From Nemertoderma westbladi (taxonomy: Eukaryota > Animalia > Xenacoelomorpha), in the NCBI GenBank assembly GCA_032718475.1, contig JAUCBJ010000071.1, positions 1 to 64,000 of the forward strand: DNA of 64,000 bases. Direction: 5' to 3'. Below are positions 1 through 33,874 of this stretch, piece after piece; the stretch's first letter is position 1, and every line of letters begins with the position of its first letter. Both the position numbers and the translations under genes were made by a program. Under the pieces are notes generated by a model that was not told where the DNA came from, did no database searches, and worked only from the letters and a program-made list of their open reading frames with translations.

Positions 1-305
1 GTGATAACCGAAGGCAAACCGGCCTTTTATACTAGAAATTGCACATGGAAACTAAACAGAAATTTCCACAGCTTCACAATCGAGCAATGAAGTACGTCGT
101 GCCCTATGATTGGCCCAGCTCATCGTTCAACGCAGTCCGGCCCTTACACTAATCAGGGACATGGAATCCTAACAGAATTTTCCACTGCCTCACATTTGAG
201 CAATAAGGTAATTTATGCCCTATGATTGGCCTGGCTCATTATCCGCTACGTTGTACGCTTCTCATTGGCCTACCAATTAGCACCTAAACGAAAATAAATG
301 GCCCC

Positions 306-387
306 AAAATACAAATTTCCCGACTGGGATTCGAACTCGTAACCTACGTAATGTAACCAACGCCTTAACCATCTGACCACTACGCCA
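306..387 (-). ncRNA. tRNA-like Pol III unit (SINE-head-like, not a canonical tRNA)
   Basis: On the minus strand: A-box-like TGGTCAGATGG (369-379), B-box GTTCGAATCC (about 327-336), then a T run; no convincing acceptor stem. Confidence 0.55.
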
Positions 388-547
388 CGAGAGTACCTAA
401 GGGTTTTATGTGTACAAATATAAATCGGCATATTACATTACTGTAATTTAATCAAATACGTCGGATTTTCAAAAGTTTTTACGCTAAAGTTAAACTACAA
501 ATGCTACCTTATAGTGAAATAATTCATCAACGTACGAAATACCCATC

Positions 548-3253
548 GTGGATCATCCAGAAATCATTTCAAACTTGGAGTTTCTTCCTGCAGTTGTTTT
601 CAGCGATATGAGTAAGATATATGATTTGCGTAGACATATTACTCAAAAGGTCGTGAACAACGTTCCACCTCATATCCAAGATTTTAAGGAACTGGATAGA
701 GCTGGTGCCGACATAGCTCCGAGTAATCTGAAAGGATATCTAACCAAGACGATTCGTTTATGGATTGGAATCGGAACCTTCGAGTCGGATACAGGTATTG
801 CCGCAGATTGGCGAGGTAAGGTTATTCGTTTCGATGAGGATAAGGATATAGAGAAGATTTGGCAACCTTCGGAAGAATTGTTGGATGAATGGACTAGGAC
901 GTTTAGATCGTTTCAGGAAAACGGTTATATGTTTTACGATAACGAGGGCGGCAGTCATCAGCAGAGTTTGACTTCTAAGACTATACAGATTAGAGCGGCG
1001 GACGGAGTTCTGCACGTTTTCAGTAGACAGAGGAGCGACAAACGAATGCCGATACCTCCAGCGAATACAAAGCGACACCATCTTATCACCGATATAGTAA
1101 AGAAGATGGACCAAGCTTGTAATATTGACGCTAGAATGCTACCGAAGATGGTAAGAAACATGATTTTAGATAAAACTGTTGTAAAGGTTGGATCAGGAGT
1201 AAGGGAGGATTTAATTAGCGACTTCGCCGGCATGACGGACAGCGATGACCGACTACCGACACCATACGTCGACACTCGACCTCTTATTCTGTGGTCTATA
1301 GAACAGGGATATTTTCGTGAGTATAATACTCAGAAGACTGGAACTGGATACATTTCCTACCTATTATTCAATTGGGATTATAAGGAAGGTAAAAGAAACA
1401 AGTATATTGAAACTTATGGAGAAGGTGATACTCCAGATATGAGTGAGTTTGAATCACAGCTTAAATGGAGAGGATGCGTGTATTGGGCTATTACGTCACC
1501 TCCAAGAGCGGTCTTACAATATTATTTAGCGATAGAGTCGTCAGTGAATGTTTGCCTAATCGCCGACATTGTGTCTCGGACTCTCAAAAGACATCCACTT
1601 TGTCTCGGAGAAGATCATACGTTCTACATGGAAGGGAGAATTCGTACCGACGTGTTTAGACGATTCCTTGAACCCTTCTACAACTCCGACGCTCAGTGTA
1701 ATGCCTTTACTCGAGCAGGATTTAGCATATTTCGAGACGTGTATCTTCGCTGTGCGGGATCTCTTATCGAAAGACCATCTATGTTTACATTGTTACCCTA
1801 TGAAGGAGAACGTATTGTGGAAATTACGGATGAATCACGGCAGACGCGCGCGCCTATCGGTCACCTCGGTGATGATTTCAACGTAACTACTACGATCGCC
1901 GACGATCCTTTAGAGGAACTTCTTGAGATAGAAAGGAACCTCCCGAAGAAATCTCAGACGGAGATTCGACAACTTGAAGCAACAGATGCTATAGTTTGCA
2001 TACAACCTTCAGAAACCTACCAACCCATAGACCCAGATGATTACGATTATAGTGTGGGAGGAAGCGCTCGACCGATTGGAGATCTTATATACGAACGAGT
2101 GTGGTACCCTGCTAATACGATGTGTAGTAAATGTGGCGTCGCTGGACATCATATGGCAAAGTGCAGTGGAAAGCACATTACTACGACTCAGCTAATCTGT
2201 GGATGGTGTGGGGATCAAGGGTCTCATACCTTTTATACTTGCTGGAGATTTATGGCTCAATGTACTTACTGCAATATAAAGGGACATCGAGCATCTGAAT
2301 GCCAACTGAGAGATATACCTTATGAACACGAATCTGTAAAACTCGTGAGGAAGTTATTTGATGAGTGGGAAGATTTAGCCGATGAACATGTATCAGCACA
2401 AAGAAGACGGTTTCCGATGAGAGCGCATCTCGGATTTTGGGCGGTAAATCCCCAGACGATGATGTCGGAAGGATATATCTCCGCTATGCCCCAATATGAC
2501 GAACTTATCGAGGTTGTCGATATTTTGCCCCACGACAGCGGATTCCGAGTGGTGCGCGAGTATCTGTTACAGATTCACCCGGATAACAAAAACACGTGGA
2601 ATTTTCAGAAAGTCGTAAATCGTATCACGTATGGTGAATTTGATCGTTTCCGAACCGAAAAGCGGAATAAAGGAGCTTGGTTAACCGTCGCATGGGCGTA
2701 CCGAGCTGCGTTTTACCATAAACGTATACGAGCGAGCGTATTCGAGGAAGAAGAGGTCCTAGAGGCGACGAATATATCAGCCACTCCGGTTGCGCCGTCT
2801 GCACGTCACCCTCGGGAGGACGGGCAGGGTAGGATCATACGGGTCCAGAAGGTGGGCCAACAATTGAAGAAAATTATTAATGTGGAAGAACGCAAGGGAG
2901 TTGAGCCGACTATTCGAGTTACTCGGGATACGGTATCACTTCCAAGAGAACCGGTAGGAGGATCGGGACATACACCAGCTGATCAACAGGGGGCGCAAGC
3001 TACTCTTGGGTCTGCGTCGTCCGCTTCTCACGCGTTCCCAGACGTTCTACCAACTGTAGCGACAACTGATCGGTCACGAGGAATTGGTCGAGGTTTTGGG
3101 ATGCCAAACAGACGAATTTGCGAGGAAATAGTTGCACCGTCTCTCAACGTCCCAAGTAAACCAGTGACTCGCCCCATTAGTCCCATATCGCGAGCAAAGT
3201 CACCTGTGCGCAGTTTTCGAGGACGCGGCAGGGCTCGATCAACTAAGCGATAA
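548..3253 (+). CDS. Unclassified protein with a DEDDy 3'-5' exonuclease-like domain, 3 CCHC zinc knuckles and a low-complexity RG-rich tail
   Basis: 901-aa open frame. FYDNEG (ExoI DxE), IQIRAADG, LPKMVRNMILDKTVVKVGSGVREDL (WRN/EXD-like ExoII), YYLAIES (ExoIII-like). Knuckles CSKCGVAGHHMAKC, CGWCGDQGSHTFYTC, CTYCNIKGHRASEC. Start uncertain (GTG at 548, first in-frame ATG at 608). Confidence 0.7.
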   Translation: MDHPEIISNLEFLPAVVFSDMSKIYDLRRHITQKVVNNVPPHIQDFKELDRAGADIAPSNLKGYLTKTIRLWIGIGTFESDTGIAADWRGKVIRFDEDKDIEKIWQPSEELLDEWTRTFRSFQENGYMFYDNEGGSHQQSLTSKTIQIRAADGVLHVFSRQRSDKRMPIPPANTKRHHLITDIVKKMDQACNIDARMLPKMVRNMILDKTVVKVGSGVREDLISDFAGMTDSDDRLPTPYVDTRPLILWSIEQGYFREYNTQKTGTGYISYLLFNWDYKEGKRNKYIETYGEGDTPDMSEFESQLKWRGCVYWAITSPPRAVLQYYLAIESSVNVCLIADIVSRTLKRHPLCLGEDHTFYMEGRIRTDVFRRFLEPFYNSDAQCNAFTRAGFSIFRDVYLRCAGSLIERPSMFTLLPYEGERIVEITDESRQTRAPIGHLGDDFNVTTTIADDPLEELLEIERNLPKKSQTEIRQLEATDAIVCIQPSETYQPIDPDDYDYSVGGSARPIGDLIYERVWYPANTMCSKCGVAGHHMAKCSGKHITTTQLICGWCGDQGSHTFYTCWRFMAQCTYCNIKGHRASECQLRDIPYEHESVKLVRKLFDEWEDLADEHVSAQRRRFPMRAHLGFWAVNPQTMMSEGYISAMPQYDELIEVVDILPHDSGFRVVREYLLQIHPDNKNTWNFQKVVNRITYGEFDRFRTEKRNKGAWLTVAWAYRAAFYHKRIRASVFEEEEVLEATNISATPVAPSARHPREDGQGRIIRVQKVGQQLKKIINVEERKGVEPTIRVTRDTVSLPREPVGGSGHTPADQQGAQATLGSASSASHAFPDVLPTVATTDRSRGIGRGFGMPNRRICEEIVAPSLNVPSKPVTRPISPISRAKSPVRSFRGRGRARSTKR

Positions 3254-3274
3254 AAGGGAGGGCAAGGGTGGACG

Positions 3275-3910
3275 GAAGACTCGTGAGCCTTTCTTATGAT
3301 TTGTGATTTATTTGAATTATATGTTTTATATTTAGAAAATTTTTTAGAAGGAACTTATATTTGAAAGATTTATGTTTCATATTTGAGATGCAAAGGTTTA
3401 TATTATTCTAAACTTATGCAGTTTATATCTATATTTAGTAAGACTACCCAAAGAGAGTTTATATTTGTAAGAATTTATATTTTATATTTGTAATTATTCC
3501 GAACTTATACAATTTATATTATTCCAAACTTATGCAATTTGTATTGTTCCGAATATTATGCAATTTATATTTTATAAGTAGTATTTGTACCTAAAGAGAA
3601 AGTTTTATAGACAGAAAATTTTGTGCTCAGAAAGACTCATATTTGTAATTATTCCAAACTTATGCAATCTACATTTAGGTACGAAAGTATTTGTAATTAC
3701 TTGAATTTATGCAGTATTTGAGATACAATAGTAGATGGAAGACTTGCGAGCCTTTCTTATTGTTTTCATTTATTTGTATTTGTAATTGTTTGAATTTATG
3801 CAATATCTGAGATGCAATAGATTTATATTGGTGAATTTAATTTAGATTTATATTGTACTTACTTAGTAAAGCCTTAAATACGTAAAGTTTGAATTTGTAA
3901 TTATTTTTGT
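3275..3910. repeat. Degenerate AT-rich tandem repeats
   Basis: Recurring TTATGCAATTTATAT and TTTGTAATTATTCC motifs; GGAAGACTyGyGAGCCTTTCTTAT occurs at about 3274 and 3737. Confidence 0.55.
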
Positions 3911-4180
3911 ATCGAATCATTACGTAGAAAGGAAGTATTGTTTGAAACTTAATTGTAAATATGTAAGTACGCCCTAAGTATTCTATAGTTTGATTGATTA
4001 TTGGTGAAAACCGTATATTTTATGCACGATAATATCCTGTTTTCATGGAGCGGTATAGAATTATATTCCCTAAAATGCCGTGGATTTTCAAAATTTTATT
4101 TTATTCGAATTAACTTTGTAAAGATTGCTTTGAGTTCTCATTAGTATTGGTTCTATCTATTATGCATCTATCGGTCAAGT

Positions 4181-4267
4181 GGTTCAGTAGCTCAGTTGGT
4201 AGAGCGTTGGAAATTATATGTGTAGTAGGTATCGAGTTCGAATCCTAGTAAGTGCGAATTATTTTTT
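4181..4267 (+). ncRNA. tRNA-like Pol III unit (SINE-head-like)
   Basis: A-box TAGCTCAGTTGG (4188-4199), B-box GTTCGAATCC (4236-4245), T6 terminator (4262-4267); the acceptor stem does not pair. Confidence 0.6.
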
Positions 4268-4319
4268 GTGCAGAATTTCAACTCATTTAAATTAACCGCT
4301 ACAAATTAATTGCATTTGT

Positions 4320-4510
4320 CTGTACCAATAAGGCTGTAGTTATTTGATTGTAACCAATGTCGTGCAAGTTATATATTAGCTGGACCAATAGCTATCTTTA
4401 AAACCTTGTTAGAATCCATAGAACAATCGAGAATTTTCTCGATTGATTGCGGCACAAATTTAGTATATAAAGGTGCGATTTGTTCATTAGTCATCACACT
4501 CACTTCAATT
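4320..4510 (+). promoter_or_regulatory. Pol II promoter-like module (three CCAAT boxes at about 30-bp spacing, then TATA)
   Basis: CCAAT at 4325, 4354 and 4385; TATATAAA at about 4464; Inr-like TCA about 30 bp downstream; AATAAA at about 4580. Confidence 0.45.
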
Positions 4511-5961
4511 TCCATCATTCACTTTCTGTCTTATTTCAGATTACATTGTTTATTGTATAATAGTTATTATATGTTTTGTAATAAAGTCAGAAATACTAGT
4601 CACATCTCTCAGCCTTTCTATCTGTTTTAATATGGTTTCACTACGGTGAACAAACTCAGGGACAGGATGGCCAGCTAGAGATCGGGCCGCAGCAATGAAC
4701 GGGAACATCACGGGAATGTAGACGAGAGACAACCCGCAATACCATCTAGTGTTATTCGCCCATCGCCTGAAAGGTTAGACAGCGTTCGATCCTTGCTACC
4801 TAAGTATAAGACCAAAAGATCAAGAGGTAGAAGTAGTGACACGCTGCAAGCCTAAAATTACATCATAGGGACTGTACTGTTTTGATTCAGGAAAAAACCG
4901 CAGTAGACCTTCATATTCCTACGGGAGGGAGAGAGCGCAGATACTAGTACGCAGATAGGACGTAGGCACCGGTACAAGGCATACACATTGGTTAGGGTGC
5001 AGCAAACTGTACGCTTAACTCTTGCTAAGTACAGGTGTGTGCGACTATTTGCAGTACGACCGTGTCTATTACATCAGAACTTGTAGGCTAGGGGGTTGCT
5101 GTGTTTTCACCTGAATTGGGATTGTACCGTTCAGGCGGTAGGGCAGTTTACGCTAGGCGCAAATAAATTGAGGCTATCAGGGATATACTAACATCTACCG
5201 TGTCCCCTCCAACGCCCTGATAGGAAGTTACCTGGACTACCTGGGTGACTAAAATTCTAGATAGGAGCCAGGATAGCTATTAGTACCCGTACGCCTACAG
5301 TAGTAAACTAACACATCTCTTCTTAGTATCAGGGACCTGGTACCTAAAATTGCCGAATTCTGGGCGTAGTATTAACCTTATGCCTGAATTTGAGTCCTGG
5401 AAATACGCAAGAGGGGAAGGAACCTTATCATTCGTGAGTATTGGACCTACAAGTTATAAAATTAGAATATTCGTAAAATGCACACCGTACCCAGTAATTA
5501 TATATGTGAAGGAGCAAAACTGCTTTGACCGTTCAGAATTAACACACGCGCGTTAGAAATTATTTACACCTCAAAATATATAAAATTAACTTTCGTCCTT
5601 ACTGCACTTTGCTCGCTAGTTAGCCATCTCCAAATCTGCTCTATACCTAGCTAGCGTCCCTTTGCCCAACCATATAAATCACACCGCGGCAAAGTATACG
5701 AGCCCCTTAGTCCGTCAGTGAGTCAGCCTGATTTTAGGATTCGCTGCGCGGGATTTTGTTTTATCGAAGTTTGTCTGCTCGTAGACTGTTTTCTGCCTCA
5801 CCGGTTAAAAGAGATCGATACTGCAATATATTCGCTTACTTGGGGTTTACTGTTTTGGTGAGAAGGTCGGATTTATGATTTGATTTACAAACTTTACAGT
5901 AGGATATTGCAGGTATTGTTACCGTCTCTTCCGATAGTAGGAATAGGCGTATCTCTCCAAT

Positions 5962-8900
5962 TTAGGCATTCCTTTAGGAAACAGAGTGGAAGGGTTTATT
6001 GTGGAAGATCACCCATGGTGGTGAACAGGCATTCCTTTGGGAAACAGAGTGGAAGGGTTTACTGCGGAAAATCACCCTTGGTGGTGAATAGGCATTCCTT
6101 TAGGAAACAGAGTGGAAGGGTTTATTGTGGAAGATCACCCATGGTGGTGAACAGGCATTCCTTTGGGAAACAGAGTGGAAGGGTTTGCTGTGGAAGATCA
6201 CCCATGGTTCTGAACAGGCATTCCTTTAGGAAACAGAGTGGAAGGGTTTACTGTGGAAGATCACCCATGGTGGTGAACAGGCATTCCTTTGGGAAACAGA
6301 GTGGAAGGGTTTATTGTGGAAGATCACCCATGGTGGTGAACAGGCATTCCTTTAGGAAACAGATTGGAAGGGTTTATTGTGGAAGATCACCCATGGTGGT
6401 GAACAGGCATTCCTTTGGGAAACAGAGTGGAAGGGTTTGCTGTGGAAGATCACCTATGGTTCTGAACAGGCATTCCTTTAGGAAACAGAGTGGAAGGGTT
6501 TACTGTGGAAGATCACCCATGGTTCTGAACAGGCATTCCTTTGGGAAACAGAGTGGAAGGGTTTATTGTGGAAGATCACCCATGGTTCTGAACAGGCATT
6601 CCTTTAGGAAACAGAGTGGAAGGGTTTATTGTGGAAGATCACCCATGGTGGTAAACAGGCATTCCTTTAGGAAACAGAGTGGAAGGGTTTATTGTGGAAG
6701 ATCACCCATGGTGGTGACAGGCATTCCTTTGGGAAACAGAGTGGAAGGGTTTACTGTGGAAAATCACCCTTGGTGGTGATTAGGCATTCCTTTAGGAAAC
6801 AGAGTGGAAGGGTTTGCTGTGGATGATCACCCATGGTTCTGAACAGGTATTCCTATGGGAAACAGAGTGGAAGGGTTTACTGTGGAAGATTACCCATGGT
6901 GGTGAACAGGATTCCTTTGGGAAACAGAGTGGAAGGGTTTGCTGTGGAAGATCACCCATGGTGGTGAGCAGGCATTCCTTTAGGAAACAGAGTGGAAGGG
7001 TTTACTGTGGAAGATCACCCTTGGTGGTGAATAGGCATTCCTTTAGGAAACAGAGTGGAAGGGTTTATTGTGGAAGATCACCCATGGTGGTGAACAGGCA
7101 TTCCTTTGGGAAACAGAGTGGAAGGGTTTGTAGTGGAAGATCACCCATGGTGGTGAACAGGCATTCCTTTAGGTAACAAGGTGGAAGGGTTTACTGTGGA
7201 AGATCACCCTTCGTGGTGAATAGGCATTCCTTTAGGAAACAGAGTGGAAGGGTTTGCTGTGGAAGATCACCCATGGTTCTGAACAGGTATTCCTTTGGGA
7301 AACAGAGTGGAAGGGTTTACTGTGGAAGATTACCCATGGTGGTGAACAGGCATTCCTTTGGGAAACAGAGTTGTAGGGTTTGTAGTGGAAGATCACCCAT
7401 GGTGGTGAACAGGCATTCCTTTAGGTAACAAGGTGGAAGGGTTTACTGTGGAAGATCACCCTTCGTGGTGAATAGGCATTCCTTTAGGAAACAGAGTGGA
7501 AGGGTTTGCTGTGGAAGATCACCCATGGTTCTGAACAGGTATTCCTTTGGGAAACAGAGTGGAAGGGTTTACTGTGGAAGATTACCCATGGTGGTGAACA
7601 GGCATTCCTTTGGGAAACAGAGTGGGAGGGTTTGCTGTGGAAGATCACCCATGGTGGTGAACAGGCATCCCTTTAGGAAACAGAGTGGAAGGGTTTACTG
7701 TGGAAGATCACCCTTGGTGGTGAATAGGCATTCCTTTAGGAAACAGAGTGGAAGGGTTTATTGTGGAAGATCACCCATGGTGGTGAACAGGCATTCCTTT
7801 AGGAAACACAGTGGGAGGGTTTATTGTGGAAGATCACCCATGGTGGTGAACAGGCATTCCTTTGGGAAACAGAGTGGAAGGGTTTACTGTGGAAAATCAC
7901 CCTTGGTGGTGAATAGGCATTCCTTTAGGAAACAGAGTGGAAGGGTTTGCTGTGGAAGATCACCCTTCGTGGTGAATAAGCATTCCTTTAGGAAACAGAG
8001 TGGAAGGGTTTGCTGTAGAAGATCACCCATGGTTCTGAACAGGTGTTCCTTTGAGAAACAGAGTGGAAGGGTTTACTGTGGAAGATTACCCATGGTGGTG
8101 AACAGGCATTCCTTTGGAAAACAGAGTGGAAGGGTTTGCTGTGGAAGATCACCCATGGTGGTTAACAGGCATTCCTTTAGGAAGCAGAGTGGAAGGGTTT
8201 ACTGTGGAAGATCACCCTTGGTGGTGAATAGGCATTCCTTTAGGAAACAGAGTAGAAGGGTTTGCTGTGGAAGATCACCCATGGTTCTGAACAGGCATTC
8301 CTTTAGGAAACAGAGTGGAAGGGTTTATTGTGGAAGATCACCCATGGTGGTGAACAGGCATTCCTTTGGGAAACAGAGTGGAAGGGTTTGCTGTGGAAGA
8401 TCACCCATGGTTCTGAACAGGCATTCCTTTAGGAAACAGAGTGGAAGGGTTTACTGTGGAAGATCACCCATGGTGGTGAACAGGCATTCCTTTGGGAAAC
8501 AGAGTGGAAGGGTTTATTGTGGAAGATCACCCATGGTGGTGAACAGGCATTCCTTTAGGAAACAGAGTGGAAGGGTTTATTGTGGAAGATCACCCATGGT
8601 GGTGAACAGGCATTCCTTTGGGAAACAGAGTGGAAGGGTTTGCTGTGGAAGATCACCTATGGTTCTGAACAGGCATTCCTTTAGGAAACAGAGTGGAAGG
8701 GTTTACTGTGGAAGATCACCCATGGTTCTGAACAGGCATTCCTTTGGGAAACAGAGTGGAAGGGTTTATTGTGGAAGATCACCCATGGTTCTGAACAGGC
8801 ATTCCTTTAGGAAACAGAGTGGAAGGGTTTATTGTGGAATATCACCCATGGTGGTAAACAGGCATTCCTTTAGGAAACAGAGTGGAAGGGTTTATTGTGG

Positions 8901-10827
8901 AAGATCACCCATGGTGGTGACAGGCATTCCTTTGGGAAACAGAGTGGAAGGGTTTACTGTGGAAAATCACCCTTGGTGGTGATTAGGCATTCCTTTAGGA
9001 AACAGAGTGGAAGGGTTTGCTGTGGAAGATCACCCATGGTTCTGAACAGGTATTCCTTTGGGAAACAGAGTGGAAGGGTTTACTGTGGAAGATTACCCAT
9101 GGTGGTGAACAGGATTCCTTTGGGAAACAGAGTGGAAGGGTTTGCTGTGGAAGATCACCCATGGTGGTGAGCAGGCATTCCTTTAGGAAACAGAGTGGAA
9201 GGGTTTACTGTGGAAGATCACCCTTGGTGGTGAATAGGCATTCCTTTAGGAAACAGAGTGGAAGGGTTTATTGTGGAAGATCACCCATGGTGGTGAACAG
9301 GCATTCCTTTGGGAAACAGAGTGGAAGGGTTTGTAGTGGAAGATCACCCATGGTGGTGAACAGGCATTCCTTTAGGTAACAAGGTGGAAGGGTTTACTGT
9401 GGAAGATCACCCTTCGTGGTGAATAGGCATTCCTTTAGGAAACAGAGTGGAAGGGTTTGCTGTGGAAGATCACCCATGGTTCTGAACAGGTATTCCTTTG
9501 GGAAACAGAGTGGAAGGGTTTACTGTGGAAGATTACCCATGGTGGTGAACAGGCATTCCTTTGGGAAACAGAGTTGTAGGGTTTGTAGTGGAAGATCACC
9601 CATGGTGGTGAACAGGCATTCCTTTAGGTAACAAGGTGGAAGGGTTTACTGTGGAAGATCACCCTTCGTGGTGAATAGGCATTCCTTTAGGAAACAGAGT
9701 GGAAGGGTTTGCTGTGGAAGATCACCCATGGTTCTGAACAGGTATTCCTTTGGGAAACAGAGTGGAAGGGTTTACTGTGGAAGATTACCCATGGTGGTGA
9801 ACAGGCTTTCCTTTGGGAAACAGAGTGGGAGGGTTTGCTGTGGAAGATCACCCATGGTGGTGAACAGGCATTCATTTAGGAAACAGAGTGGAAGGGTTTA
9901 CTGTGGAAGATCACCCTTGGTGGTGAATAGGCATTCCTTTAGGAAACAGAGTGGAAGGGTTTATTGTGGAAGATCACCCATGGTGGTGAACAGGCATTCC
10001 TTTAGGAAACAGAGTGGGAGGGTTTATTGTGGAAGATCACCCATGGTGGTGAACAGGCATTCCTTTGGGAAACAGAGTGGAAGGGTTTACTGTGGAAAAT
10101 CACCCTTGGTGGTGAATAGGCATTCCTTTAGGAAACAGAGTGGAAGGGTTTGCTGTGGAAGATCACCCTTCGTGGTGAATAGGCATTCCTTTAGGAAACA
10201 GAGTGGAAGGGTTTGCTGTGGAAGATCACCCATGGTTCTGAACAGGTGTTCCTTTGAGAAACAGAGTGGAAGGGTTTACTGTGGAAGATTACCCATGGTG
10301 GTGAACAGGCATTCCTTTGGAAAACAGAGTGGAAGGGTTTGCTGTGGAAGATCACCCATGGTGGTTAACAGGCATTCCTTTAGGAAGCAGAGTGGAAGGG
10401 TTTACTGTGGAAGATCACCCTTGGTGGTGAATAGGCATTCCTTTAGGAAACAGAGTAGAAGGGTTTGCTGTGGCAGATCACCCATGGTTCTGAACAGGCA
10501 TTCCTTTAGGAAACAGAGTGGAAGGGTTTATTGTGGAAGATCACCCATGGTGGTGAACATGCATTCCTTTAGGAAACAGAGTGGAAGGGTTTATTGTGGA
10601 AGATCACCCATGGTGGTGAACAGGCATTCCTTTGGGAAACAGAGTGGAAGGGTTTGCTGTGGAAGATCACCCATGGTTCTGAACAGGCATTCCTTTAGGA
10701 AACAGAGTGGAAGGGTTTACTGTGGAAGATCACCCATGTTGGTGAACAGGCATTCCTTTAGGAAACAGAGTGGAAGGGTTTACTGTGGAAGATCACCCAT
10801 GGTGGTGAACAGGCATTCCTTTGGGAA
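5962..10827. repeat. 63-bp satellite array (about 77 monomers) with higher-order structure
   Basis: Unit AGGCATTCCTTTrGGAAACAGAGTGGAAGGGTTTryTGTGGAAGATCACCCATGGTGGTGAAC; rare variants recur at +2203 bp. Confidence 0.97.
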
Positions 10828-11447
10828 CTACTACTAGGATCGGCATGCTGCATTGCAGCTGCATTTTTAAGAATGCTGTGCCGGCTTGTCAACAAAATTG
10901 CACCGCCACCCTACTATGCATCAGGTTCGTTATTCCGCTCCATTGTGGACCCCACCACCTCAACTTTCCACGCCTATGCAATCTAAACAGTTGATGCCTA
11001 ACAATGGTTGGCAAAGTCCTGGATATACTACATTGATGCGTCCCTCAACGCCGACATATATCCACCACAGTCACTATAACCGGGGTCCAGTTAATCAATC
11101 TTTCAACCCATTTTCTATGGACAATGGAGAATCATTTCCTGTCACTCGAAGGCCAGTGACTTCGTCTACACCCTTCCATGATGGATGAATTGATAATGCT
11201 AGAGGTGAGGGAATTTCCATTAATGTAGACCCTTAAGTGCACGATGTAGTTCCAACAGTTGCCCAAAAGATGGCGTTGTTACGTGGGTTCCTTCCCGTCT
11301 TGTTTCTTTTAGTTTATCTGCTAGGAATAGTCCTACAAAGTTTGATGTGTCAAATATCCATACAATACCTTGCATGGGACTTCCCAAGCAGCGATTCGAC
11401 TGGCCGAAATTAAAACTCATTGGTCCCACTTGAAAATCTCGATCTCC

Positions 11448-12818
11448 CTAAAACTCCCTATCACCCATGACATTTGCTAGATCATCCGCATCTTTAAGGC
11501 CAGTGTCCTTTAAGATGCGTCTCAAGAAAGTCATGGGCTGTCCACCATGCTTATTCACTCCATGAGGCTGCCAAAGTACAAGATTATGCACTGGCTGGTC
11601 CTTACGGCGAAAGCAATGTCCTGCAAAGCGGAGGCGGTTTTGTTCTAGTGTCAAGCTTGGGGGAACCAATGAGACACCTCCAATGTTATATAGTGTCTGG
11701 TTGGAGATGTGTGCATTGTACTGTACAATGAACCCGGCGTAGCATTCTTGTGAATGTGCCATCCAGAGATTTGGTGTCCTCAGCAGTTAGAGCCCAGCAT
11801 GGACTCCCGTAGAGGAGTACTGGAACTACTGCTGCTCTAAATAATCGGACCTTAAGTTTCCGATTAATTCTCGGTGACTTCCAAATCCTGGAAAGCCTAT
11901 TCAAGGCTGCCCATGCCTTTCCCTTACGTATTCGAAGGTCCTCACCTGACTTCCGGATCCATGATCCCAGGTAACAGAAGTCGTCCACATGCTCAAACAT
12001 ACCATCCTTTGAGCTTATGCTCATCCGATCAGAGACTTGCTGAGGACTTTCAAAGTTAACTGTCAGAATTTTGGTCTTTCTGGAGTTAATAAAAAGACCA
12101 ACACTAGAAGCAGCATGTTCTAATTCGCTGAGGAGCCGTTGGGCTCCCTCTAATGATTCTGAGAGTACTCCTAAGTCATCAGCAAAGTCTAGATCAGTTA
12201 GGTACTTGGCAGGATTTCCTCGACTTCTGGAGCCAGTAGGTGGAGTTATCATCACCCCATCATCATTATAATGATCTAAGGACATGCGTAGAACATAGTC
12301 AACTACAATAATGAACAAGAATGGTGCAAGTGTGTCTCCTTGGAGGACGCCCCATAACACTTCAAATGGTTCTGTGTCACCGTCAACAGTAGACACAAAT
12401 GTTGTCGAACCATCATATACTGATCTGATTGCTGCAATAATTTCATCAGGAATCCCATATAATGAAAGTATGCTGAACATACGTGAGCGAGAGACTGAAT
12501 CAAAGGCCTTGAAGAAGTCAACAAAGATAACAGCCAGATGCCTGTCTTTCTTTTTTGATAACTCTTCAATTATCCTTCTAAGTGCCAAAATGGGCTCCAT
12601 GGTCCCACGACCTTTACGGAACCCATTCTGATTTCCACGGAGCAGTCTCTCAATGGGATCCCTGATGCGATTTAATAGAATCCTATTGTATAGCTTTGCA
12701 GCAATCGAGATCAATGAGATTCCCCGAAAAGAACCATAGAGTGTTAGGTTGCCCTTCTTGGGAACTGGCACCAACTTATTTGTTTTCATTTCTTTTGGGA
12801 CTCTTGTTGTTCGGTACA
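11448..12818 (-). pseudogene. RTE-like LINE reverse transcriptase, C-terminal part (frameshifted)
   Basis: VPVPKKG, NQNGFRKGRGT, FVDFFKAFDSV, GVLQGDTLAPFLF, DFADDL, LRFAGHCFR, LVLWQP. Confidence 0.9.
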
Positions 12819-13094
12819 TGCTATGTTGTGAGGTGAGCCGAAAGATAGAACAAGAGTTTATCTGAAGCATGTACACAACATAATAATCAATATAATACAT
12901 ATATAGATGTGATAGGTAAGTCAGCAGTCAGGTGGGCGCCGACTGCATAGATATACCAGATACCGGTATGGTAGGTATCAGTATGCAATAAGAAGAACGG
13001 TACAGCAGTAAGGTATATGCAGTAAGGTAACCGACAGAACAGTATAACATACATATATACTATATGGCTACGAGTAGGTCACGAGTATCTCTCA
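12819..13094 (-). repeat. Gypsy 3' LTR (276 bp, TG...CA)
   Basis: Adjacent polypurine tract GAAAGGGGGAGA on the minus strand; the first 111 bp are identical to 22312-22422. Confidence 0.9.
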
Positions 13095-13132
13095 TCTCCC
13101 CCTTTCAGTTTTAGTGAGTCTGGGAATATATG

Positions 13133-16100
13133 TCAGTACCTCTCACCTCCCCCTTTCAGTCTGGGAGATCGTCGCGGGATGATTTTTGACCTCACCTCGT
13201 CATCGAATGTAATGTTGCGTTTGGGTGGGGACCCACGAGGTGTGTCCGGATTGGACGGTGTGGAAGGAGAGTTGCGTGCTCCGACAAAGCGACGGAGGTA
13301 TCGACGGTTGCGTATGAGTTTGCGCCCATTCGAGAGGAGGATTTCGAAGCGGCGGAACCAGAGTTTTCCCACGATAGTGCCAGTGCGGTCCCACAGGCGT
13401 GTCCGTTGACTTTGTAGACGGACCGTCTCACCGAGAGTAAGCGGTGGGAGGGGATGTGCGGATAGGTTATAACGATCAGCCATGTCCTGTTTAAGGATAC
13501 CAGCTCGAATAACAGAATCGGTGGTCGGCTTTGTGGCAAAGGAAGCAGGGTGTACTGGCACGCGGGATCGCATTGAACGTCCATAGAGTAACTGCGCAGG
13601 GGACAAACCAGTGGCAGATGGGGTGTTTCGCCACTCAAGGATGGCCTCAGCAAATGCGCGTTGATCAAGATGTTTATTAGCGGTTTGACACTTTTTTACG
13701 AGGGCCTTCATGGCATGAACCGCAGATTCGGCATGGCCATTGGATTGTGGATATTCAGGCGAGGAGATGCGGTGTGTCACCGACCAGTCGTGGAGGAAGT
13801 TGCGGAACTCCTCTGACGTGAACTGGGGCCCTCCATCTGTAGATAGTTCGACCGGGGCACCATAGTCCCGGAAGTATTGGGTAAATGAGTCAATAAGGTG
13901 GCGTGTAGAGGGGCATGTGCGGTATGCCTCAACTATGGGCCAACCAGTGTGTCAATCAGCATATACAAGGTAATATTGATATGCGTAGGAGTACAGATCA
14001 GCGGAACATTGCTCAAATGGTCGATTTGGAAGCGGGGTTGAAATTAAGTCCTCATGTGGTTGACTACGTTGGTATAGTTGACACGAATCACATGACTCGA
14101 CAGTGTTTTTGATGTCGGAATTCATGCCGGGCCAGTAGAACGCCTGGCGCGCGCGACGCTTGGTACGAACAATGCCTTGATGCGAGGCATGTAACCGCTT
14201 AAGGATTTCACGACGAATGGAACTCGGGATAATGATCCTGGCTCCATATAGAATGAGGTCGCCGTCGATTGACAGTTCCGGTAGTATACTTTTATATTGA
14301 TGGACTGACTGTTTCGGTATGTCGTCAGTGTCTTTACCATTGGCAAGGTAATGGTACAGATCCTGGTAGGGGATGTCTGTTTTAGCAGCGTTGATGATGA
14401 TGTCGAGAGCAGGGTCATGACTGGGATGTCTGTCGGCGACTGATTCATCATCTATAGCACTGACTCGTTGGATGACGGCTGTGTGGTGGTCATCTTGGAA
14501 TAATACTTCATCACTGGGTTGCGGGTCGGAGGTAGGAGCTCGTGAGAGAGCGTCGGCTGAGTGATTGTCCTTCCCTGGGACCCATTTAGCTGTAAACGTA
14601 TATGGGGCAAGTTTCTCGCGGAGGCGTTGGAGACGGGGGTTCTCAATGAGGTCGAGGGTGAACCTGTTGAGGATAGGAATTAATGGTTTGTGGTCAACTT
14701 CGATGTCAAAGTGTGCGAGGCCTTGGAGATATAACTTGCACTTTGATGCAGCCCATACGACAGCAAGTAATTCAAGCTCACACATAGCGTAGCGCGATTC
14801 GGTATTAGTTGTGAAACGAGAGCCACATTGAATGAGACGCCAGCTCGGAGGTGAGTTGAGATCAGCGTTGTGATTTTGCAGCAACACATATCCTAAGCCT
14901 TGGAGACGAGACGCGTCAGTGCGAAGGACGGTGGGCAACGCAGGGTTAAAAGGTTGAAGCACTGGTGGGGAGACCAAAGCAGCTTTAATGGCATTAAAGG
15001 CAGTGGTGTGCACGTCTAACCAGAGAAATGAGTTGCGAGTTTGCAGCAGCGGTCGTAAGGGAGCGGCAACGGCGGCAATTTCATTGGAGAACTCGCCGAG
15101 TTGGTTAACTAAACCAAAAAATGAGCGGAGCTCACGGATGTTCGTTGGGATGGGGAATTCCGAGATGGCTGATACCCGGCTGGGATCAGCTTCGACACCA
15201 GTATGGCCAACAATATAGCCAGCAAACTCAACACTTGGCTGCGCAAAAACGATTTTGTCAGGGTTTAGAGTTATTGAAGCGTTACGACATCGGGTTAAAA
15301 GTTCCGAAACAATAGTGACGTGTTCGTCAAACGTTGTTGTATAAACGATGATGTCGTCTACAATTTTTCTACTATTTGTTAGGCACTCGAGTGCAGCATC
15401 ACCTCGACGGCAATATTCATCCCCGGAGCATGATAGACCCATCGGTGCGCGAAGATACATATAGCGTCCATATGGGGTCAGGAATGTAGTGAGAGGTTGG
15501 CTGTCCTCGTCAAGAGGTATTTGCCAGTACCCATGGGTCACATCGAATTTGGAAAAGTAGCGCATTCCATGGGGAATTGAGAATACTACATCGCGGGGTG
15601 ATGGAAAGGGATGAACTGGTCGGTGTATATGAATATTCAACCGTGTATGGTCGACGCACATACGTAATTTACCGTTCTTTTTCGTTGTCACGACCAGGGG
15701 ACTAACAAACTCAGTTGGGTAGTCCACTTTTGAAATAACTCCCTTTAATTCCATCTGATTGAGGTTTTCTTTGATTTCCTCGCGGTAAGCAAATGGTATG
15801 GGGCGAGCGGCGTGGACTGCGTACGCCTCGTATCCCTTTTTCATGTAGATATGCATAGGGTCACCAGACATGGTGGGCAGTTCGACATTAGGTGAACTCC
15901 CGGCAAACACGTCATTGAATTCGCAAACAAGCTGTTGGTGGGTGTTTTCGATAGTTTTTATAGGTGTGTCGTCCGTGATTGGCGGTGGGGTTGACACAGT
16001 AAGCAGGTTCCCTCGTTGAGCGGTTATATAGCCGGGAATTGGAAATTCTGGGGCTAATAGTCCGTGCTGTTTACATACAATGTATGACATTAGAAACCCA

Positions 16101-16735
16101 TCGAAATCGGAGGTAACATATGCAACGGTGGGTATACAACGTTCATAGTAAATTATATTAATTGAAATGGAACCAAGACATTCCATTTGTGTTTTATTTG
16201 CAGCTAACAGCGGTATGACGTCAATGGGGTTGATATACTGGGTTAAACCATGGGTTTCGACAATAGAATTCGAAATTATGGTGTCATCCGCCCCAGTATC
16301 AACTACTGATGAATTTATGAAAAAGGTTGCATCATGGCAGGAGACAGAGACGCGTATCCTAGGTGGTTTCGATGAAACAGCATAAATGAATGCATTATTG
16401 TTGTTTATGTTTCCATCCTCGAGATCGGTTGCAATATAGCTATTATGGGAGGCTTTATTTGGATGCGACCGAGGGACAGGTTTAGGAGTCGTGGAGGTCG
16501 AGGTAGCGGACTGTTTCTTACCGCAAACAGGAGCTATATGACCTTGTATACCACAAGCGTGACAGGTACTGGATCGATGCGGGCACTGACTCCGTTCGTG
16601 GGCTGAGTAACACTTTTGACAAGATTTTCGCCGTTCATAAGGTTGCTGGTTGGAGCGGGGGGCGGAGGGACTCCACTCCGTCTTTGTTTGTGGCATGGGC
16701 CTCGGTACCGTGGGTTGGAGGTTGATCGACCGCGG
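13133..16735 (-). pseudogene. Gypsy gag C-terminus and pol (CCHC, protease, RT, RNase H, integrase)
   Basis: CHACGIQGHIAPVC, VDTGA, IVDD (RT), TDAS and DHKPL (RNase H), HQG..C..C, SNGHAES (integrase); stop at about 13952. Confidence 0.92.
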
Positions 16736-19700
16736 TGTTAGAATTAGAACTCATTTTAAACATTAAACTTATTGCTGTATTTTAATAACTAAACTTTACT
16801 GCTATCAGCACGTGCGCAATGCAATACATATTCACCAGTCACCAACCTAACTAACTCACAACAATACAGTAGGCACAAACTAACACAAGCATAATACTGC
16901 AGTACTCACAATCTCCCCTCATTTTTTTAAATTAAAGTTTGTTGTAATAATTGTTGCATAAAATCATAGTTTGTATAAAATCAGTTACATATAGTTTTCT
17001 TTGATCTCGAACTTCTTTCTCACATCCTTCTTTGTTAAACAATCAGCCAATTGGTTAGTTCCTGCAACCAATTTAAATGACACGCGACCAAGTTCGAATA
17101 GTTCTCTTAGTATTCCCATTTCGATCATTAAACGCTTATCACGGAGTACATTAGTGGTTTGAATTGCGGTATGTAATGATTTGTTGTTGGTGTAACAAAT
17201 TATCGGTATAGAAACATCAATAATGTTTTCAATAATTTTCGATAAGAAAATTGCCTCCTCAACACCGTCTACACATGCCAAGGTTTCTGCAGCTAATGTA
17301 GATTTAACAACCCGTCGAACTTTAGCAGATTTCCATGTCAATAAACCATTCAACTGAACCTCTCCAAATGGATATGATGATTGGGTGGAACAGTTGCTTG
17401 TTTCTTGACCATTGTTTACTGTAGCTAAAAATATCATATATCCACCTTGAGAAGAGAAACCAACTGCATTACCAAGTGAAGCATCTGTAAATACTGCTAA
17501 TGCTGCACTTGAAGGTTTAAAGTAGGTAGTATCAAATTGCAGACCAGCAGCTAATGATTGTTTGGCTTTACGAATTACCTTATTGAGGTACTTAGCATCA
17601 CCAACTATAGGATGCTTTGCCTGTGAACTTAGATAAGAAGCATCAAAACTTAAATCAGGGCGACTTTGATTGGCAAGCCATGATATAGCTCCTACTCGTG
17701 TTCGATAATCAGAGATTTCATTGGATGTTAATGGTCTATCAACTTCAGCATATTGCGAGATTGGAAGTTCTGTTAGAAGCTGAGCGTATCGAAATTGACT
17801 AATTTCAATTTCATGATCGGTTTGTTTTACATCAATACCAAGATATTTAAAAGCCAGTGCTGCTGTTGAACGAATTTCAAATATACTACATATTTTCGCA
17901 ACAATATTGTTCTTGAAGTATGAGTTACCTCCCCACAGGATATCATCAACATGAATGCATAACAACCCCTGAATTTCTCCATCTTTCTTATAATAAAACA
18001 AAGCTGGATCCTCGGGACAAGCAGTCAATCCTAAATTCGTTAAGGTCCCCCGAAGTTTCATATACCATGCTCGTGGGGCATCATTTAGACCATACACAGT
18101 TTTCATTAACTGCCAAACTCCATCTACCATAGCCTCTGGTGGTGGCTTCACGAATATTTCACGATCGATGGTGAAACCCTGTAAGAAAGCACACTTAATG
18201 TCGAGACTATTTATTGTCCAACCGTATGATGAAATCAGAAACAACACGAGACGAATATTATCTTTATTACATGTAGGCGAATCTGTTCGACCACCAAACT
18301 GTTCTTCAAATCCCCGAACTACAAGGCGGGCTTTGACAACATCATTGCCATTAACAACTTTCTCTGTAATGACCCAGCGTGTAGACACAAGAGACTGACC
18401 AGAATATGGAACAACTTTCACAACACCTTGTTCCTTCCATGTACTTAACTCCTTTTCTTTAGCATCTTTCAATCCTGAAGTTACCGTAATCATTACCTCT
18501 TCATCATCAGGAACAATTTCATAATCCGAAACTTCATCTAGATTCACCCAAGATTTACCACTAGGCAATTCAATATTCCAACAGTTCCTATATTTACCGC
18601 TTGCCTTACCAGCTCGACTTAATATTCTTCCACAAATAACATTATCAGAATCGGTGTATTTAATACGTTGCCCAGCTTTAACATTACTATTTGCAACAAT
18701 AGACACCCATGGTTGTTTTCCACTTTCGGTTTCATTTGAACTATTATTAGTAGGCAACGTCATGTCATTATGATCATTGGCATTGCCGATATCATTGTCA
18801 TCATCATCACTATCATCAACAGATCTTCGCACAACATCACCATTATTAGAGTTTCGGACAATGCTTCCATCGCCATTATTTTTAACAACACTGTCATGTA
18901 CATCATTTGTCAATCGTTCATTTGAATTATTGACTAAGCAAATTCGAGTTTTATGTACTCGAACTATAAACCCACCATGTCTCACATAAACACTTTGACC
19001 CTCAGAACCTATCACAACTCCAGGTCCCTTCCATTCTTTGTGACCTTCTCGCTTGTAAAATACACGATCCCCATTTTCACACTGAAACTCGACCGCTCTA
19101 ACATTATGCTTAAGTGCACGGCGCAATCTACTACTAGACTCATTTGCAATAAATTGTCTACGGGCCACATGCATCGCATTTAGGTTGTCTGCCACTACCT
19201 CACTCGTTGTCTTACCCTCCAAAGCAGCTAGAGAACTATTCTCTAAAATTGGAATTTTTGGATTGAGTCCAATAGCAACCTGGCTCGGTGAGAAACCATG
19301 CACATTAGTCAAACTGTTTCGTGCAACAACAGCCCAAGCAACAGCAATATTGAGATTTACATGACAATCTTGCATTATTTTAAGTACATCATCACCCAAT
19401 ACTGCATTCTGACGTTCACAGACTCCATTACTGAAAGGGGATTCTGCCGCAGTTGGTAATATCTCAATATTACAGTTATCAGCCATACTAACAAATTCGT
19501 CATTATAAAATTCTCCACCGTTGTCAGCCAAGACTTTATTTGGAACACCAAAATTTGAAATCCATCCAGTAAACATCCCTTGAATAACAGATTCAGGCTT
19601 TTTATTTGATAAAACTGCAGCTGCACGGTAACGTGTTGCTAAATCCACCATATGTAAAATAGGATGACCAGTTATAAATTTTAGATCAATAGCTAATCCT

Positions 19701-22193: not shown

Positions 22194-22311
22194 AACAGAT
22201 ACGGTGATACAGAAAATCTGTACGGTATGGTATTGCAGTATTGAGAACGGTATTGCAAAGTTCAGAAGTTGGGGTGTATCGCTGAGGTAGCAGACTACAC
22301 AAACTGCACCA

Positions 22312-22422
22312 TGCTATGTTGTGAGGTGAGCCGAAAGATAGAACAAGAGTTTATCTGAAGCATGTACACAACATAATAATCAATATAATACATATATAGA
22401 TGTGATAGGTAAGTCAGCAGTC
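22312..22422 (-). repeat. Truncated Gypsy 5' LTR
   Basis: Identical to 12819-12929; the PBS lies immediately adjacent at 22301-22311. Confidence 0.9.
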
Positions 22423-23102: not shown

Positions 23103-23168
23103 TCCTTTGGGAAACAGAGTGGAAGGGTTTACTGTGGAAGATCACCCTTGGTGGTGGACAGGTATTCC
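23103..23168. repeat. Terminal monomer of the 63-bp satellite, displaced by the nested insertions
   Basis: TCCTTTGGGAAACAGAGTGGAAGGGTTTACTGTGGAAGATCACCC matches the array unit. Confidence 0.9.
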
Positions 23169-23939
23169 CTGGATTGATGAAGGTAAAAGATTCTGACATT
23201 CTTATATAACAATTGTCTGATTTGTAAGGAGTAAAAAAATATAATATAATAATATAATTTATAATTATAATAATTTATTAATAACAAACTGTGTTTAAAT
23301 GTGTACTTAATTAAGTTAATTTCATTGCAATCAATACTCAATGTAATTATCTACTCTACCGATTGAATGTTCTCCACAACTCTCTCTTATATTTTCGTTT
23401 AAATTCTAATTATATATTCTTTACACTATAAATATATTATTTATTGATCGATGAATATTAAATAAATGTTAAATAAATAAATAACCAAGACAAAATTACC
23501 GCGACAAATCATTTAATCATAATAGTCATCTGTCCATATTAAATAACTAACTAATAAATTGGCAACTAGCTAATATGTCATTTTACTACAATTAATCTCA
23601 CAACAACAAAGGGTTATATAAAACAATAAATTATAACAGTCCCGTATAAATATACATAAATAGCGCAGACACAATATTTTATCATAATTCCAAGGCACTG
23701 AAAATTCCAGTCCATATAGAACAAACGATCTTTGGGTCACATGCAAAAAATTAATTTAGTTTATCATAAACGATTCTTCTATATCTCCTACTACCGAGGT
23801 TTACCTCGTTAAAAATAAACTTATTGATTATATTTGAACGACATTTAGGCATAGAAATTAAATGAAAGATCGTTGATCGAGGAATGATAATTCCGATCAT
23901 ATTACAGAGCCACTACTGGAACTTATTATCTATCATTAT

Positions 23940-33619: not shown

Positions 33620-33874
33620 TTTTTAACAACGCAGATTAAGATTCAGTGGGTACTGCTGGAGAAGTAAACATGAGCAGGTCATACCAGATCTACTTTTCTG
33701 GCAACCAACTCATGGAAAGCGTAGTCGTGGACGACCGGCCATAACATATATAGATCAACTTGAAAGGGATACTGAACTTGGGAGAAACGAAATTGCGACA
33801 ACTATGGAGAATCGGGAAGCCTGGAAGGATCTCATTTCCACTGTCCGAGTTCGCTCAACCTAGTAGTAGTAGTT
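33620..33874 (+). mobile_element. 3' fragment of an RTE-like LINE
   Basis: Translates as LRFSGYCWRS..LLFWQPTHGKRSRGRPAITYIDQL..NREAWKDLISTVRVRST*, followed by an (AGT)n tail. Confidence 0.8.

What the first reader, a model, noticed from the sequence alone, without database searches (positions are those of the whole stretch)
1..4640. Orphan exonuclease-knuckle gene inside a mirror-symmetric cassette of tRNA-like + CCAAT + TATA modules
Seen: both sides of the 901-aa ORF carry the same architecture facing outward. Left (minus strand): A/B-box unit at 387-306, CCAAT at about 265, 226 and 109, TATAAAAG at about 31-24. Right (plus strand): A/B-box unit at 4181-4267, CCAAT at 4325/4354/4385, TATATAAA at 4464. 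The TATA contexts resemble each other (GTGCAATTTCTAGTATAAAAGG vs GCACAAATTTAGTATATAAAGG). The modules share layout more than sequence. Inference: an unclassified mobile element or viral cassette, in which Pol III units insulate or enhance divergent Pol II promoters or produce decoy small RNAs. It does not match any element family I recognise.
Basis: partly seen in the sequence, partly recalled or inferred. Interest (0 to 1): 0.78.

Follow-up and report, generated by a model that had tools for sequence, protein, structure and literature searches.

The report
Retrotransposon with tRNA-box ends and exonuclease
The mirror-image layout is not one unit but the meeting point of two different many-copy repeats in an animal genome, most likely the ends of two related jumping genes, one inserted backwards into the other's extra gene, which is predicted to encode an RNA-trimming enzyme; both ends carry a tRNA-like promoter motif ahead of an ordinary promoter.

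Summary
The mirror cassette is not a unit. Public contigs show all of 1-5950 is a many-copy repeat with a sharp break at 529/530. Other copies of the left module run on into mixed host DNA, and other copies of the ORF run on into one constant sequence. The left module starts with TG at 529; in some copies it adjoins the same 17-base purine-rich motif that precedes the right module (4037-4053). This is the signature of long terminal repeats (LTRs): 4054 onward is likely the 3' LTR of the ORF's element, and 529-1 the LTR of a sister family inserted backwards into the ORF. The protein is not an orphan. It has three distant relatives, a DEDDy-type exonuclease motif set, three zinc knuckles, and mostly synonymous variation between copies. 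Exonuclease accessory genes (rotifer LTR elements) and tRNA-like LTR segments (Helenus) are each published; I did not find them together in print. No gag or pol was seen, so the superfamily and the LTR's 3' end stay open.

The parts
1..529 (-). Upstream (U3-like) part of the likely LTR of a sister family, starting TG at 529 and inserted backwards into the ORF; the window begins about at its predicted transcription start
   Evidence: Mixed long loose ends behind 529 in 4 of 4 runs (agreement 0.56-0.69 where several contigs); depth step at 529/530
306..387 (-). tRNA-like A/B-box unit with a T4 run; not a tRNA gene
24..268 (-). Three CCAAT boxes (two inside a 116-nt duplication) and a TATA box
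529..530 (.). Junction between the two elements; it cuts the 5' part of the ORF region
530..3253 (+). Accessory ORF region (GTG 548, first ATG 608): predicted DEDDy-type 3'-5' exonuclease at about residues 67-346 from the ATG, three CCHC-like knuckles at about 506-565, a short conserved motif at about 585-635, and a low-complexity basic tail
3254..4036 (+). AT-rich 3' untranslated region (GC 0.26) with degenerate 25-45 nt repeats that differ in number between copies
   Evidence: joints
4037..4053 (+). 17-nt motif ending in a short purine-rich tract, likely the polypurine tract; the same motif adjoins the left terminus in other copies
   Evidence: Loose end behind 529 in X5 (exact match by eye) and the X1 majority (one difference)
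4054..4488 (+). U3-like part of the likely 3' LTR: A/B-box unit 4181-4267 with T6, CCAAT at 4325/4354/4385, TATA at 4464
   Evidence: Offsets from the terminus match the left module (B box 181 vs 192, T run 208 vs 220, CCAAT 271/300 vs 261/300); depth rises across about 4050
4489..4631 (+). Likely R region: initiator-like site near 4489 (consensus recalled) and AATAAA at 4580
   Evidence: X4 depth falls after the 4379-4577 bin (weak hint)
4632..5963 (+). Non-coding many-copy continuation (no stop-free stretch over 90 codons): a long U5, or the leader of a tandem copy
5964..10827 (+). 63-nt tandem array (77 copies), cut at 10827 by a nested block with an 11-nt target duplication; possibly inside the LTR
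23103..23198 (+). Rest of the array and candidate LTR 3' end (ends in CA at 23198; GC falls from 0.45 to 0.13 after it)
   Evidence: tentative

Best explanation
The window shows a junction at 529/530 between two different many-copy repeats, most likely two sister LTR retrotransposon families, one inserted backwards into the other's accessory gene, so the mirror symmetry is likely an accident of nesting. Element A reads left to right: accessory ORF, AT-rich untranslated region, purine-rich tract at 4037-4053, 3' LTR from 4054. Element B's LTR starts at 529 on the minus strand; it has no tract beside it here, so it is a 5' or solo LTR. How each would work (inferred): Pol II starts about 25 nt after the TATA box of the 5' LTR and ends near the AATAAA of the 3' LTR. 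The tRNA-derived A/B-box unit lies in U3, so it is copied into both LTRs at each cycle. The T run right after the B box would stop Pol III after about 85 nt, so Pol III would not make the genomic RNA. My best guess is that the unit recruits TFIIIC and Pol III to keep the neighbouring Pol II promoter open in silenced, repeat-rich chromatin (about 0.4), rather than working through a small decoy RNA (0.25) or being an idle SINE remnant (0.35). The ORF product is likely an RNA-binding 3'-5' exonuclease that trims the element's own RNA ends or host silencing RNAs; I put catalytic activity at about 0.55. Shown: motifs, many copies, the break, the two kinds of continuation, homologous proteins. Inferred: LTR identity, transcription, every function.
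For: Many copies: 8,755 contig pieces of X1 and 3,161 of X3 lie on 1-5950 and cover 30 of 30 bins; one 255-nt X3 piece inside the ORF has depth 7,012 with 1 difference, while diverged pieces in that run have depth 12-53. Break: depth at 499-509 vs 543-553 is 209,174 vs 21,441 (X1), 182,509 vs 19,164 (X2), 113,885 vs 26,059 (X3) and 2,031 vs 291 (X4). Behind 529 the loose ends are long and mixed (X1 5 contigs, agreement 0.69; X2 5, 0.61; X3 4, 0.56; X4 1). Before 530 they agree (0.98-1.0) in 4 of 4 runs, and one X4 contig carries 943 more letters. The left terminus reads TG. Some copies put the window's 4037-4053 motif next to it. The two modules are colinear from their termini. Protein: three relatives with the same domain order; D111, E113, D201 and D222 are invariant in 4 of 4, and Y306/E310 sits where the third motif should; the top fold matches are DEDD exonucleases, best EXD2 at Z 7.5, rmsd 4.6, 106 aligned; ESM Atlas lists PF01612 at 0.91. 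10 of 15 listed differences between copies in the ORF are synonymous, against 0.325 expected (p=0.007). Precedent for this gene position: PMC5408684.
Against: No gag, RT or integrase linked to this element was seen, and no genome is held, so no paired LTRs or target duplication could be checked. The right terminus reads TA, not TG, and its first 22 nt match the left terminus only weakly (tied rank 3 of 2,688 positions). No loose end at 4054 is among the 22 listed of 548. The purine tract is short and imperfect. The LTR's 3' end and a primer-binding site were not found. Only 32 of 554 pieces were listed, so rare bridging contigs in X1-X3 are not excluded. Pfam gives no exonuclease hit at E 0.1 for the ORF or its 3 relatives. 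The folded model is poor (mean pLDDT 32.8), no Foldseek match reaches E 0.001, and no Z reaches 8. The 15 differences are the best-supported rows only, not all.
Confidence: 0.8

Rival explanations
1. One symmetric mobile cassette, with the ORF between two outward-facing Pol III plus Pol II modules.
For: Both modules are real, face outward and share a tRNA-like core.
Against: Both sides of 529/530 have other continuations in 4 of 4 runs, depth drops about 4- to 10-fold across the junction, and 0 of 32 listed pieces bridge it. The modules are too diverged to be the inverted repeats of one young element, whose copies are mostly over 95% alike.
Confidence: 0.04
2. The terminal segments are split direct repeats or pseudo-LTRs of a tyrosine-recombinase (DIRS/Ngaro) or Penelope-like retroelement, and the junction is an inversion or truncation.
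For: DEDDy ORFs also occur in Penelope-like Athena/Terminon elements (PMC5408684). The repeat runs on in many copies well past 4631 with no clear end. No integrase was seen.
Against: A sharp TG terminus that adjoins either mixed host DNA or one constant purine-rich motif is typical of integrase-type LTRs (established knowledge). No hammerhead core lies in either module or in 4054-5963.
Confidence: 0.1
3. The LTR reading holds, but the 529/530 junction is an assembly mis-join of two repeat families rather than a real insertion.
For: No listed contig bridges the junction in any of 4 runs; both sides are many-copy repeats.
Against: The break falls exactly on the natural terminus of the left repeat, as an insertion would; only 32 of 554 pieces were listed, and a single-copy junction can be private to one individual.
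Confidence: 0.06

Closest known systems
DEDDy exonuclease ORF3 of bdelloid rotifer LTR retrotransposons Juno and Vesta (Rodriguez et al. 2017, PMC5408684; abstract and 11 passages read)
   Same: A DEDDy-type exonuclease ORF at the 3' end of the internal region, in sense, before the 3' LTR; function untested there too.
   Different: Here the acidic set reads D-E-D-E (the paper reports DEED), three CCHC-like knuckles and a long tail follow, and the best structural match is EXD2, weakly. Kinship with the rotifer proteins was not tested. The word tRNA does not occur in that paper's main text.
Helenus TRIMs (Kojima 2024, PMC10886601; parts 1-3 of 6 and 12 passages read, supplements not read)
   Same: A tRNA-derived segment inside the LTR that keeps boxes A and B but is mostly not a working tRNA. 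The paper also says that 'not a few LTRs' in Repbase hold part of a tRNA-like sequence.
   Different: Helenus elements are short (longest 1,263 bp), non-coding, and thought to use Pol III for the template RNA. Here the element has over 3.5 kb of internal sequence with a protein gene, a T run right after the B box, and a CCAAT/TATA promoter downstream.
Pol III small-RNA genes in foamy virus LTRs (PMC3993851; 12 passages read)
   Same: A Pol III unit with A box, B box and terminator inside an LTR that is also transcribed by Pol II.
   Different: Those units make hairpin microRNA precursors in vertebrate retroviruses. The units here are tRNA-derived, do not fold unusually well (z -1.8 and -1.1), and no small RNA is shown.
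Nested LTR retrotransposon insertions in repeat-rich DNA (general knowledge)
   Same: One element inserted into another, in either orientation; the same window holds further nests.
   Different: Nothing essential; the nesting itself is ordinary.

Membership tests
LTR retrotransposon | Dispersed, many-copy element | tested here: met
   Thousands of contig pieces over the whole stretch in X1 and X3
LTR retrotransposon | Terminal repeat that adjoins host DNA in some copies and a constant internal tract in others | tested here: met
   Left terminus at 529: mixed flanks plus the 17-nt motif. For the right terminus this is inferred from the shared motif and layout.
LTR retrotransposon | TG...CA termini | tested here: inconclusive
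   Left starts TG, right starts TA; the candidate CA end at 23198 is tentative
LTR retrotransposon | Polypurine tract before the 3' LTR | tested here: inconclusive
   Right position and shared between the families, but short and imperfect (4037-4053)
LTR retrotransposon | Two direct LTRs, primer-binding site and target-site duplication | not testable with these tools
   The other ends lie outside the window and no genome is held
LTR retrotransposon | gag, RT, RNase H and integrase genes | not testable with these tools
   The region upstream of the ORF is displaced by the insertion; searches for loci of the relatives found none
DEDDy 3'-5' exonuclease (PF01612-like) | ExoI D-x-E and ExoII D | tested here: met
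   D111, E113 and D201 invariant in 4 of 4 aligned proteins
DEDDy 3'-5' exonuclease (PF01612-like) | ExoIII Y-x3-D | tested here: inconclusive
   Y306-x3-E310 here; Y plus an acidic residue in 3 of 4 rows at these columns
DEDDy 3'-5' exonuclease (PF01612-like) | DnaQ-like fold or profile match above threshold | tested here: inconclusive
   Best rows are DEDD enzymes but below thresholds: EXD2 E 0.011, Foldseek E 0.002 at best, Z 7.5, no Pfam hit
DEDDy 3'-5' exonuclease (PF01612-like) | Nuclease activity | not testable with these tools
   Needs an assay
Helenus / TRIMp3 | tRNA-derived A and B boxes inside the LTR | tested here: met
   (given the LTR reading)
Helenus / TRIMp3 | Short and non-coding | tested here: not met
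   Over 3.5 kb of internal sequence with an 881-aa ORF
tRNA gene | Cloverleaf passing ARAGORN or the Rfam cut-off | tested here: not met
DIRS1-type element with inverted terminal repeats | Near-identical inverted ends belonging to one element | tested here: not met
   The ends are diverged and the left one is not attached to the ORF in the other copies seen

The most novel reading that the evidence does not exclude
An undescribed, recently expanded clade of protein-coding animal LTR retrotransposons that carries a two-part counter-silencing kit: a Pol III unit kept under selection in U3, acting as a built-in chromatin barrier or decoy-RNA gene for the Pol II promoter, and an active exonuclease with three zinc knuckles that destroys host silencing RNAs. 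It could also be the missing protein-coding kind of element behind tRNA-bearing TRIMs such as Helenus.
Probability: 0.2. Interest if true: 0.65.

Novelty: new variant of a known kind. Interest (0 to 1): 0.36.

Why it matters
The headline claim, a new symmetric cassette, falls, and the nesting is ordinary. What remains is a usable case for two open questions. First, what DEDDy accessory genes do for retrotransposons: this family is abundant, its copies are very alike, and its ORF shows signs of purifying selection. Second, why LTRs keep tRNA promoter boxes: here two diverged sister families keep the A/B-box core while its flanks have drifted, next to an intact Pol II promoter, so a simple reporter test can ask whether the boxes act as a barrier or enhancer. 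It is also a caution for genome reading: an LTR inserted backwards into a sister element mimics a designed bidirectional cassette.

Tried and rejected
No genome is held, so copy number, paired LTRs and target duplications could not be read directly. Word-indexed protein searches found nothing with the ORF or with alignment A1 (lengths near the query only, so longer fused forms were not searched). P0002 (a plant protein) matches only through knuckles and was left out of the alignment. Single-sequence folding failed (pLDDT 30.8). The Atlas search with the knuckle region gave nothing at 0.9 or above. No related loci were found in viral contigs or metagenome contigs. No RNA holder was listed. X4 is labelled DNA by guess; its depth climbs toward about 4400 and falls after about 4580, and one of its contigs has a run of A>G changes at 5504-5622, which looks like polyadenylated, edited RNA, but contigs cannot show this and I use it only as a hint. 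TGG at 4632 was considered as a primer-binding site: the bases after it fold into a small hairpin, I had no tRNA set to test it against, and depth in X1 and X3 does not fall there, so I left it open. Rfam found no family at cut-off in 1-6000 (one chance-level row). No second copy of either module lies in the window. The NXF1 search placed the host only as an animal distant from named records (30-39% identity for most rows). Literature: searches found the two parts separately and no paper on the combination; most subscription journals and Repbase entries are not covered, and Kojima's supplements were not read.
Full report
Observation. The motifs are at the stated places. The left module on the minus strand has an A box near 385-375, a B box from 337, a T4 run, CCAAT boxes at 264, 225 and 109, and TATAAAAG at 31-24. 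The right module has an A box near 4188, a B box at 4235, T6 at 4262, CCAAT at 4325, 4354 and 4385, and TATATAAA at 4464. A full module appeared in 0 of 2,000 shuffles of the non-coding flanks, against 2 observed, though the pattern was set after seeing the data. The ORF is 901 aa from GTG 548 and 881 aa from ATG 608. The units are tRNA-derived in look but are not tRNA genes (ARAGORN 0; Rfam tRNA 12.2 bits against 29 for the right unit and no tRNA row for the left). Their cores are homologous (score 77, reached by 0 of 500 shuffles), while the block before them is not (49 of 500) and the block after is marginal (12 of 500).

Setting. The host is an animal distant from named records (NXF1 about 35% identical), and the window is full of nested mobile elements. 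No assembly is held, so I used contigs of public runs.

Many copies. On 1-5950, X1 gave 8,755 pieces, X3 3,161, X4 558 and X5 26; X1, X3 and X4 cover 30 of 30 bins and X5 25 of 30. Summed depth is not a copy number. Still, a single 255-nt X3 piece in the ORF has depth 7,012 with one difference, while diverged pieces in the same run have depth 12-53, which suggests hundreds of near-identical ORF copies (inference).

The break. Laying four runs (three samples) on 400-700 shows a step at 529/530. Depth at 499-509 against 543-553 is 209,174 / 21,441 (X1), 182,509 / 19,164 (X2), 113,885 / 26,059 (X3) and 2,031 / 291 (X4). Behind 529 the loose ends are long and disagree (agreement 0.69, 0.61 and 0.56 for 5, 5 and 4 contigs; one contig in X4). 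Before 530 they agree at 0.98-1.0 in all four runs, and one X4 contig has 943 further letters; by eye the 30 letters shown hold no stop in the ORF's frame, so the ORF may be longer in other copies. None of the 32 listed pieces, of 554 laid, bridges the junction. In X4 the depth from 532 on is exactly one contig's depth, so nothing crosses there; in X1-X3 a rare bridge among unlisted pieces is possible and would be expected for a real single insertion. So the left module and the ORF belong to different repeats.

Why LTRs. On the minus strand the left repeat starts TG at 529. In some copies it adjoins a fixed motif: the X5 loose end is the exact reverse complement of window 4037-4053 (compared by eye), and the X1 majority differs by one letter. 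In others it adjoins unrelated DNA. A terminal segment with either host DNA or a constant purine-rich internal tract beside it is how 5' or solo LTRs and 3' LTRs differ (established knowledge). The same motif in the window ends at 4053, so the right LTR would start at 4054. Measured from these termini the modules are colinear: B box at 192 and 181, T run at 220 and 208, CCAAT at 261/300 and 271/300, TATA at 498 and 410, the left one carrying a 116-nt duplication. Depth also rises across about 4050 (X1 75,357 to 130,303; X3 37,401 to 75,093). Against this: the right terminus reads TA, its first 22 nt match the left only at tied rank 3 of 2,688, and no loose end at 4054 was among the 22 listed of 548.

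The LTR's far end is open. One candidate is 4631, followed by TGG, but depth in X1 and X3 does not fall there and the next bases form a hairpin. The other is 23198. The 63-nt array that starts at 5964 is cut at 10827 by a nested block with an 11-nt target duplication and resumes at 23103; it is followed by a short stretch that ends in CA, loosely mirrors the LTR start by eye, and precedes a fall in GC from 0.45 to 0.13. I favour a long LTR but cannot show it.

The protein. Pfam gives only a weak zinc knuckle (E 0.012), and two word-indexed searches found nothing. The exhaustive search gave 4 hits. Three unnamed metagenome proteins (E 3e-6 to 8e-4) share the domain order; the fourth matches by knuckles only and was dropped. 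D111, E113, D201 and D222 are invariant in 4 of 4, and Y306-x3-E310 fits the third motif, with Y plus an acidic residue in 3 of 4 rows. The profile's best solved match is EXD2 (E 0.011). The Atlas lists PF01612 clusters at 0.91 with 160 shared features, a lead only. The model is poor (pLDDT 32.8), yet its best matches are DEDD exonucleases over residues 67-346 (best E 0.002; best Z 7.5, rmsd 4.6, 106 aligned). Each line is under threshold; together with the motifs they make the assignment likely. Of the 15 listed differences between copies in the ORF, 10 are synonymous against 0.325 expected for transitions (p=0.007), and none of the 12 listed indels, of 46, falls in the ORF. These are the best-supported rows only.

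How it would work. Inferred throughout. Pol II would start about 25 nt after the TATA box, where both modules end in a similar initiator-like block, and stop near AATAAA 4580. The A/B-box unit lies in U3 and so is copied to both LTRs. Its T run would end a Pol III transcript after about 85 nt, so Pol III would not make the genomic RNA, unlike the model for Helenus. The core is kept between two families whose flanks have drifted, which hints at selection on the boxes. I rank a TFIIIC-dependent open-chromatin or barrier role first (0.4; such roles of tRNA genes are recalled, and one search was seen as a listing only), then an idle SINE remnant (0.35), then a decoy RNA (0.25). The exonuclease, held on RNA by its knuckles, would trim the element's RNA ends or host silencing RNAs.

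Comparison. DEDDy ORF3 genes are published for rotifer Juno and Vesta elements and for Penelope-like Terminons (PMC5408684, passages; PMC6431247, passages). tRNA-like LTR segments are published for Helenus, and that paper notes that not a few Repbase LTRs hold one (PMC10886601, parts 1-3). Pol III genes inside LTRs are known in foamy viruses (PMC3993851, passages). Searches found no paper joining these features in one element, but Repbase and most subscription journals are not covered. Earlier unchecked notes of this scan report exonuclease accessory genes in LTR elements of other genomes and abundant tRNA-headed repeats in this genome; they lower the surprise and are not used as support. No look-alike of this stretch was on record.

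Verdict. Observation confirmed, interpretation partly supported. The mirror is most likely a nested insertion of one LTR family into a sister family's accessory gene (0.8). What is left is a new variant of a known kind: a likely LTR retrotransposon clade with a tRNA-derived box in U3 and an exonuclease-knuckle accessory gene. Interest 0.36.

Noticed in passing
window 5964-10827 and 23103-23170: 63-nt tandem array (77 copies plus about one), G-skewed, whose units give long open frames of up to 485 codons; split by a nested block with an 11-nt target duplication (10817-10827 / 23103-23113). It may be part of the LTR.
   Followed up: partly
window 10828-23102: Three-level nest: a non-LTR element with a (TAG)n tail (RTE-like, label recalled) holds a Gypsy-type element with identical 113-nt repeats (12817-12929 / 22310-22422), which holds an RVT_2 (Copia-type) element at 16985-21352.
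   Followed up: partly
window 5504-5622: One contig of run X4 (depth 37, 69 differences) has a dense run of A>G changes mostly absent from X1 and X3; it looks like A-to-I hyper-editing of sense RNA, but the run is not shown to be RNA.
   Followed up: no
window 4636-4652: Small hairpin with a C-UACG-G loop (stable tetraloop type, recalled) just after the predicted poly(A) region.
   Followed up: partly
window 43997-44275: tRNA-headed repeat on the minus strand with a hammerhead-type CTGANGA core and an exact 82-nt inverted copy; it fits the tRNA-hammerhead repeats noted elsewhere in this genome. The LTR units lack that core.
   Followed up: partly
window 48900-63600: Gene-dense AT-rich block with an rve integrase (50928-52019) and ORFs that look like a Polinton/Maverick polymerase, protease and capsid (these labels recalled; Pfam gave no family for the two tested).
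   Followed up: no
window 36326-38260 (-): Complete NXF1 mRNA export factor in one unbroken 644-codon frame, only about 35% identical to named animal proteins.
   Followed up: partly
window 23940-24887 (-): 315-aa ORF with four diverged ubiquitin-like domains.
   Followed up: no
window 33805-34545: Eleven tandem 69-nt units, each ending in a (TAG)n run like the tail of the non-LTR element at 10828.
   Followed up: no
loose end behind window 529, run X4: One copy of the left LTR sits next to a short stretch of TTAGGG-type telomere repeat.
   Followed up: no
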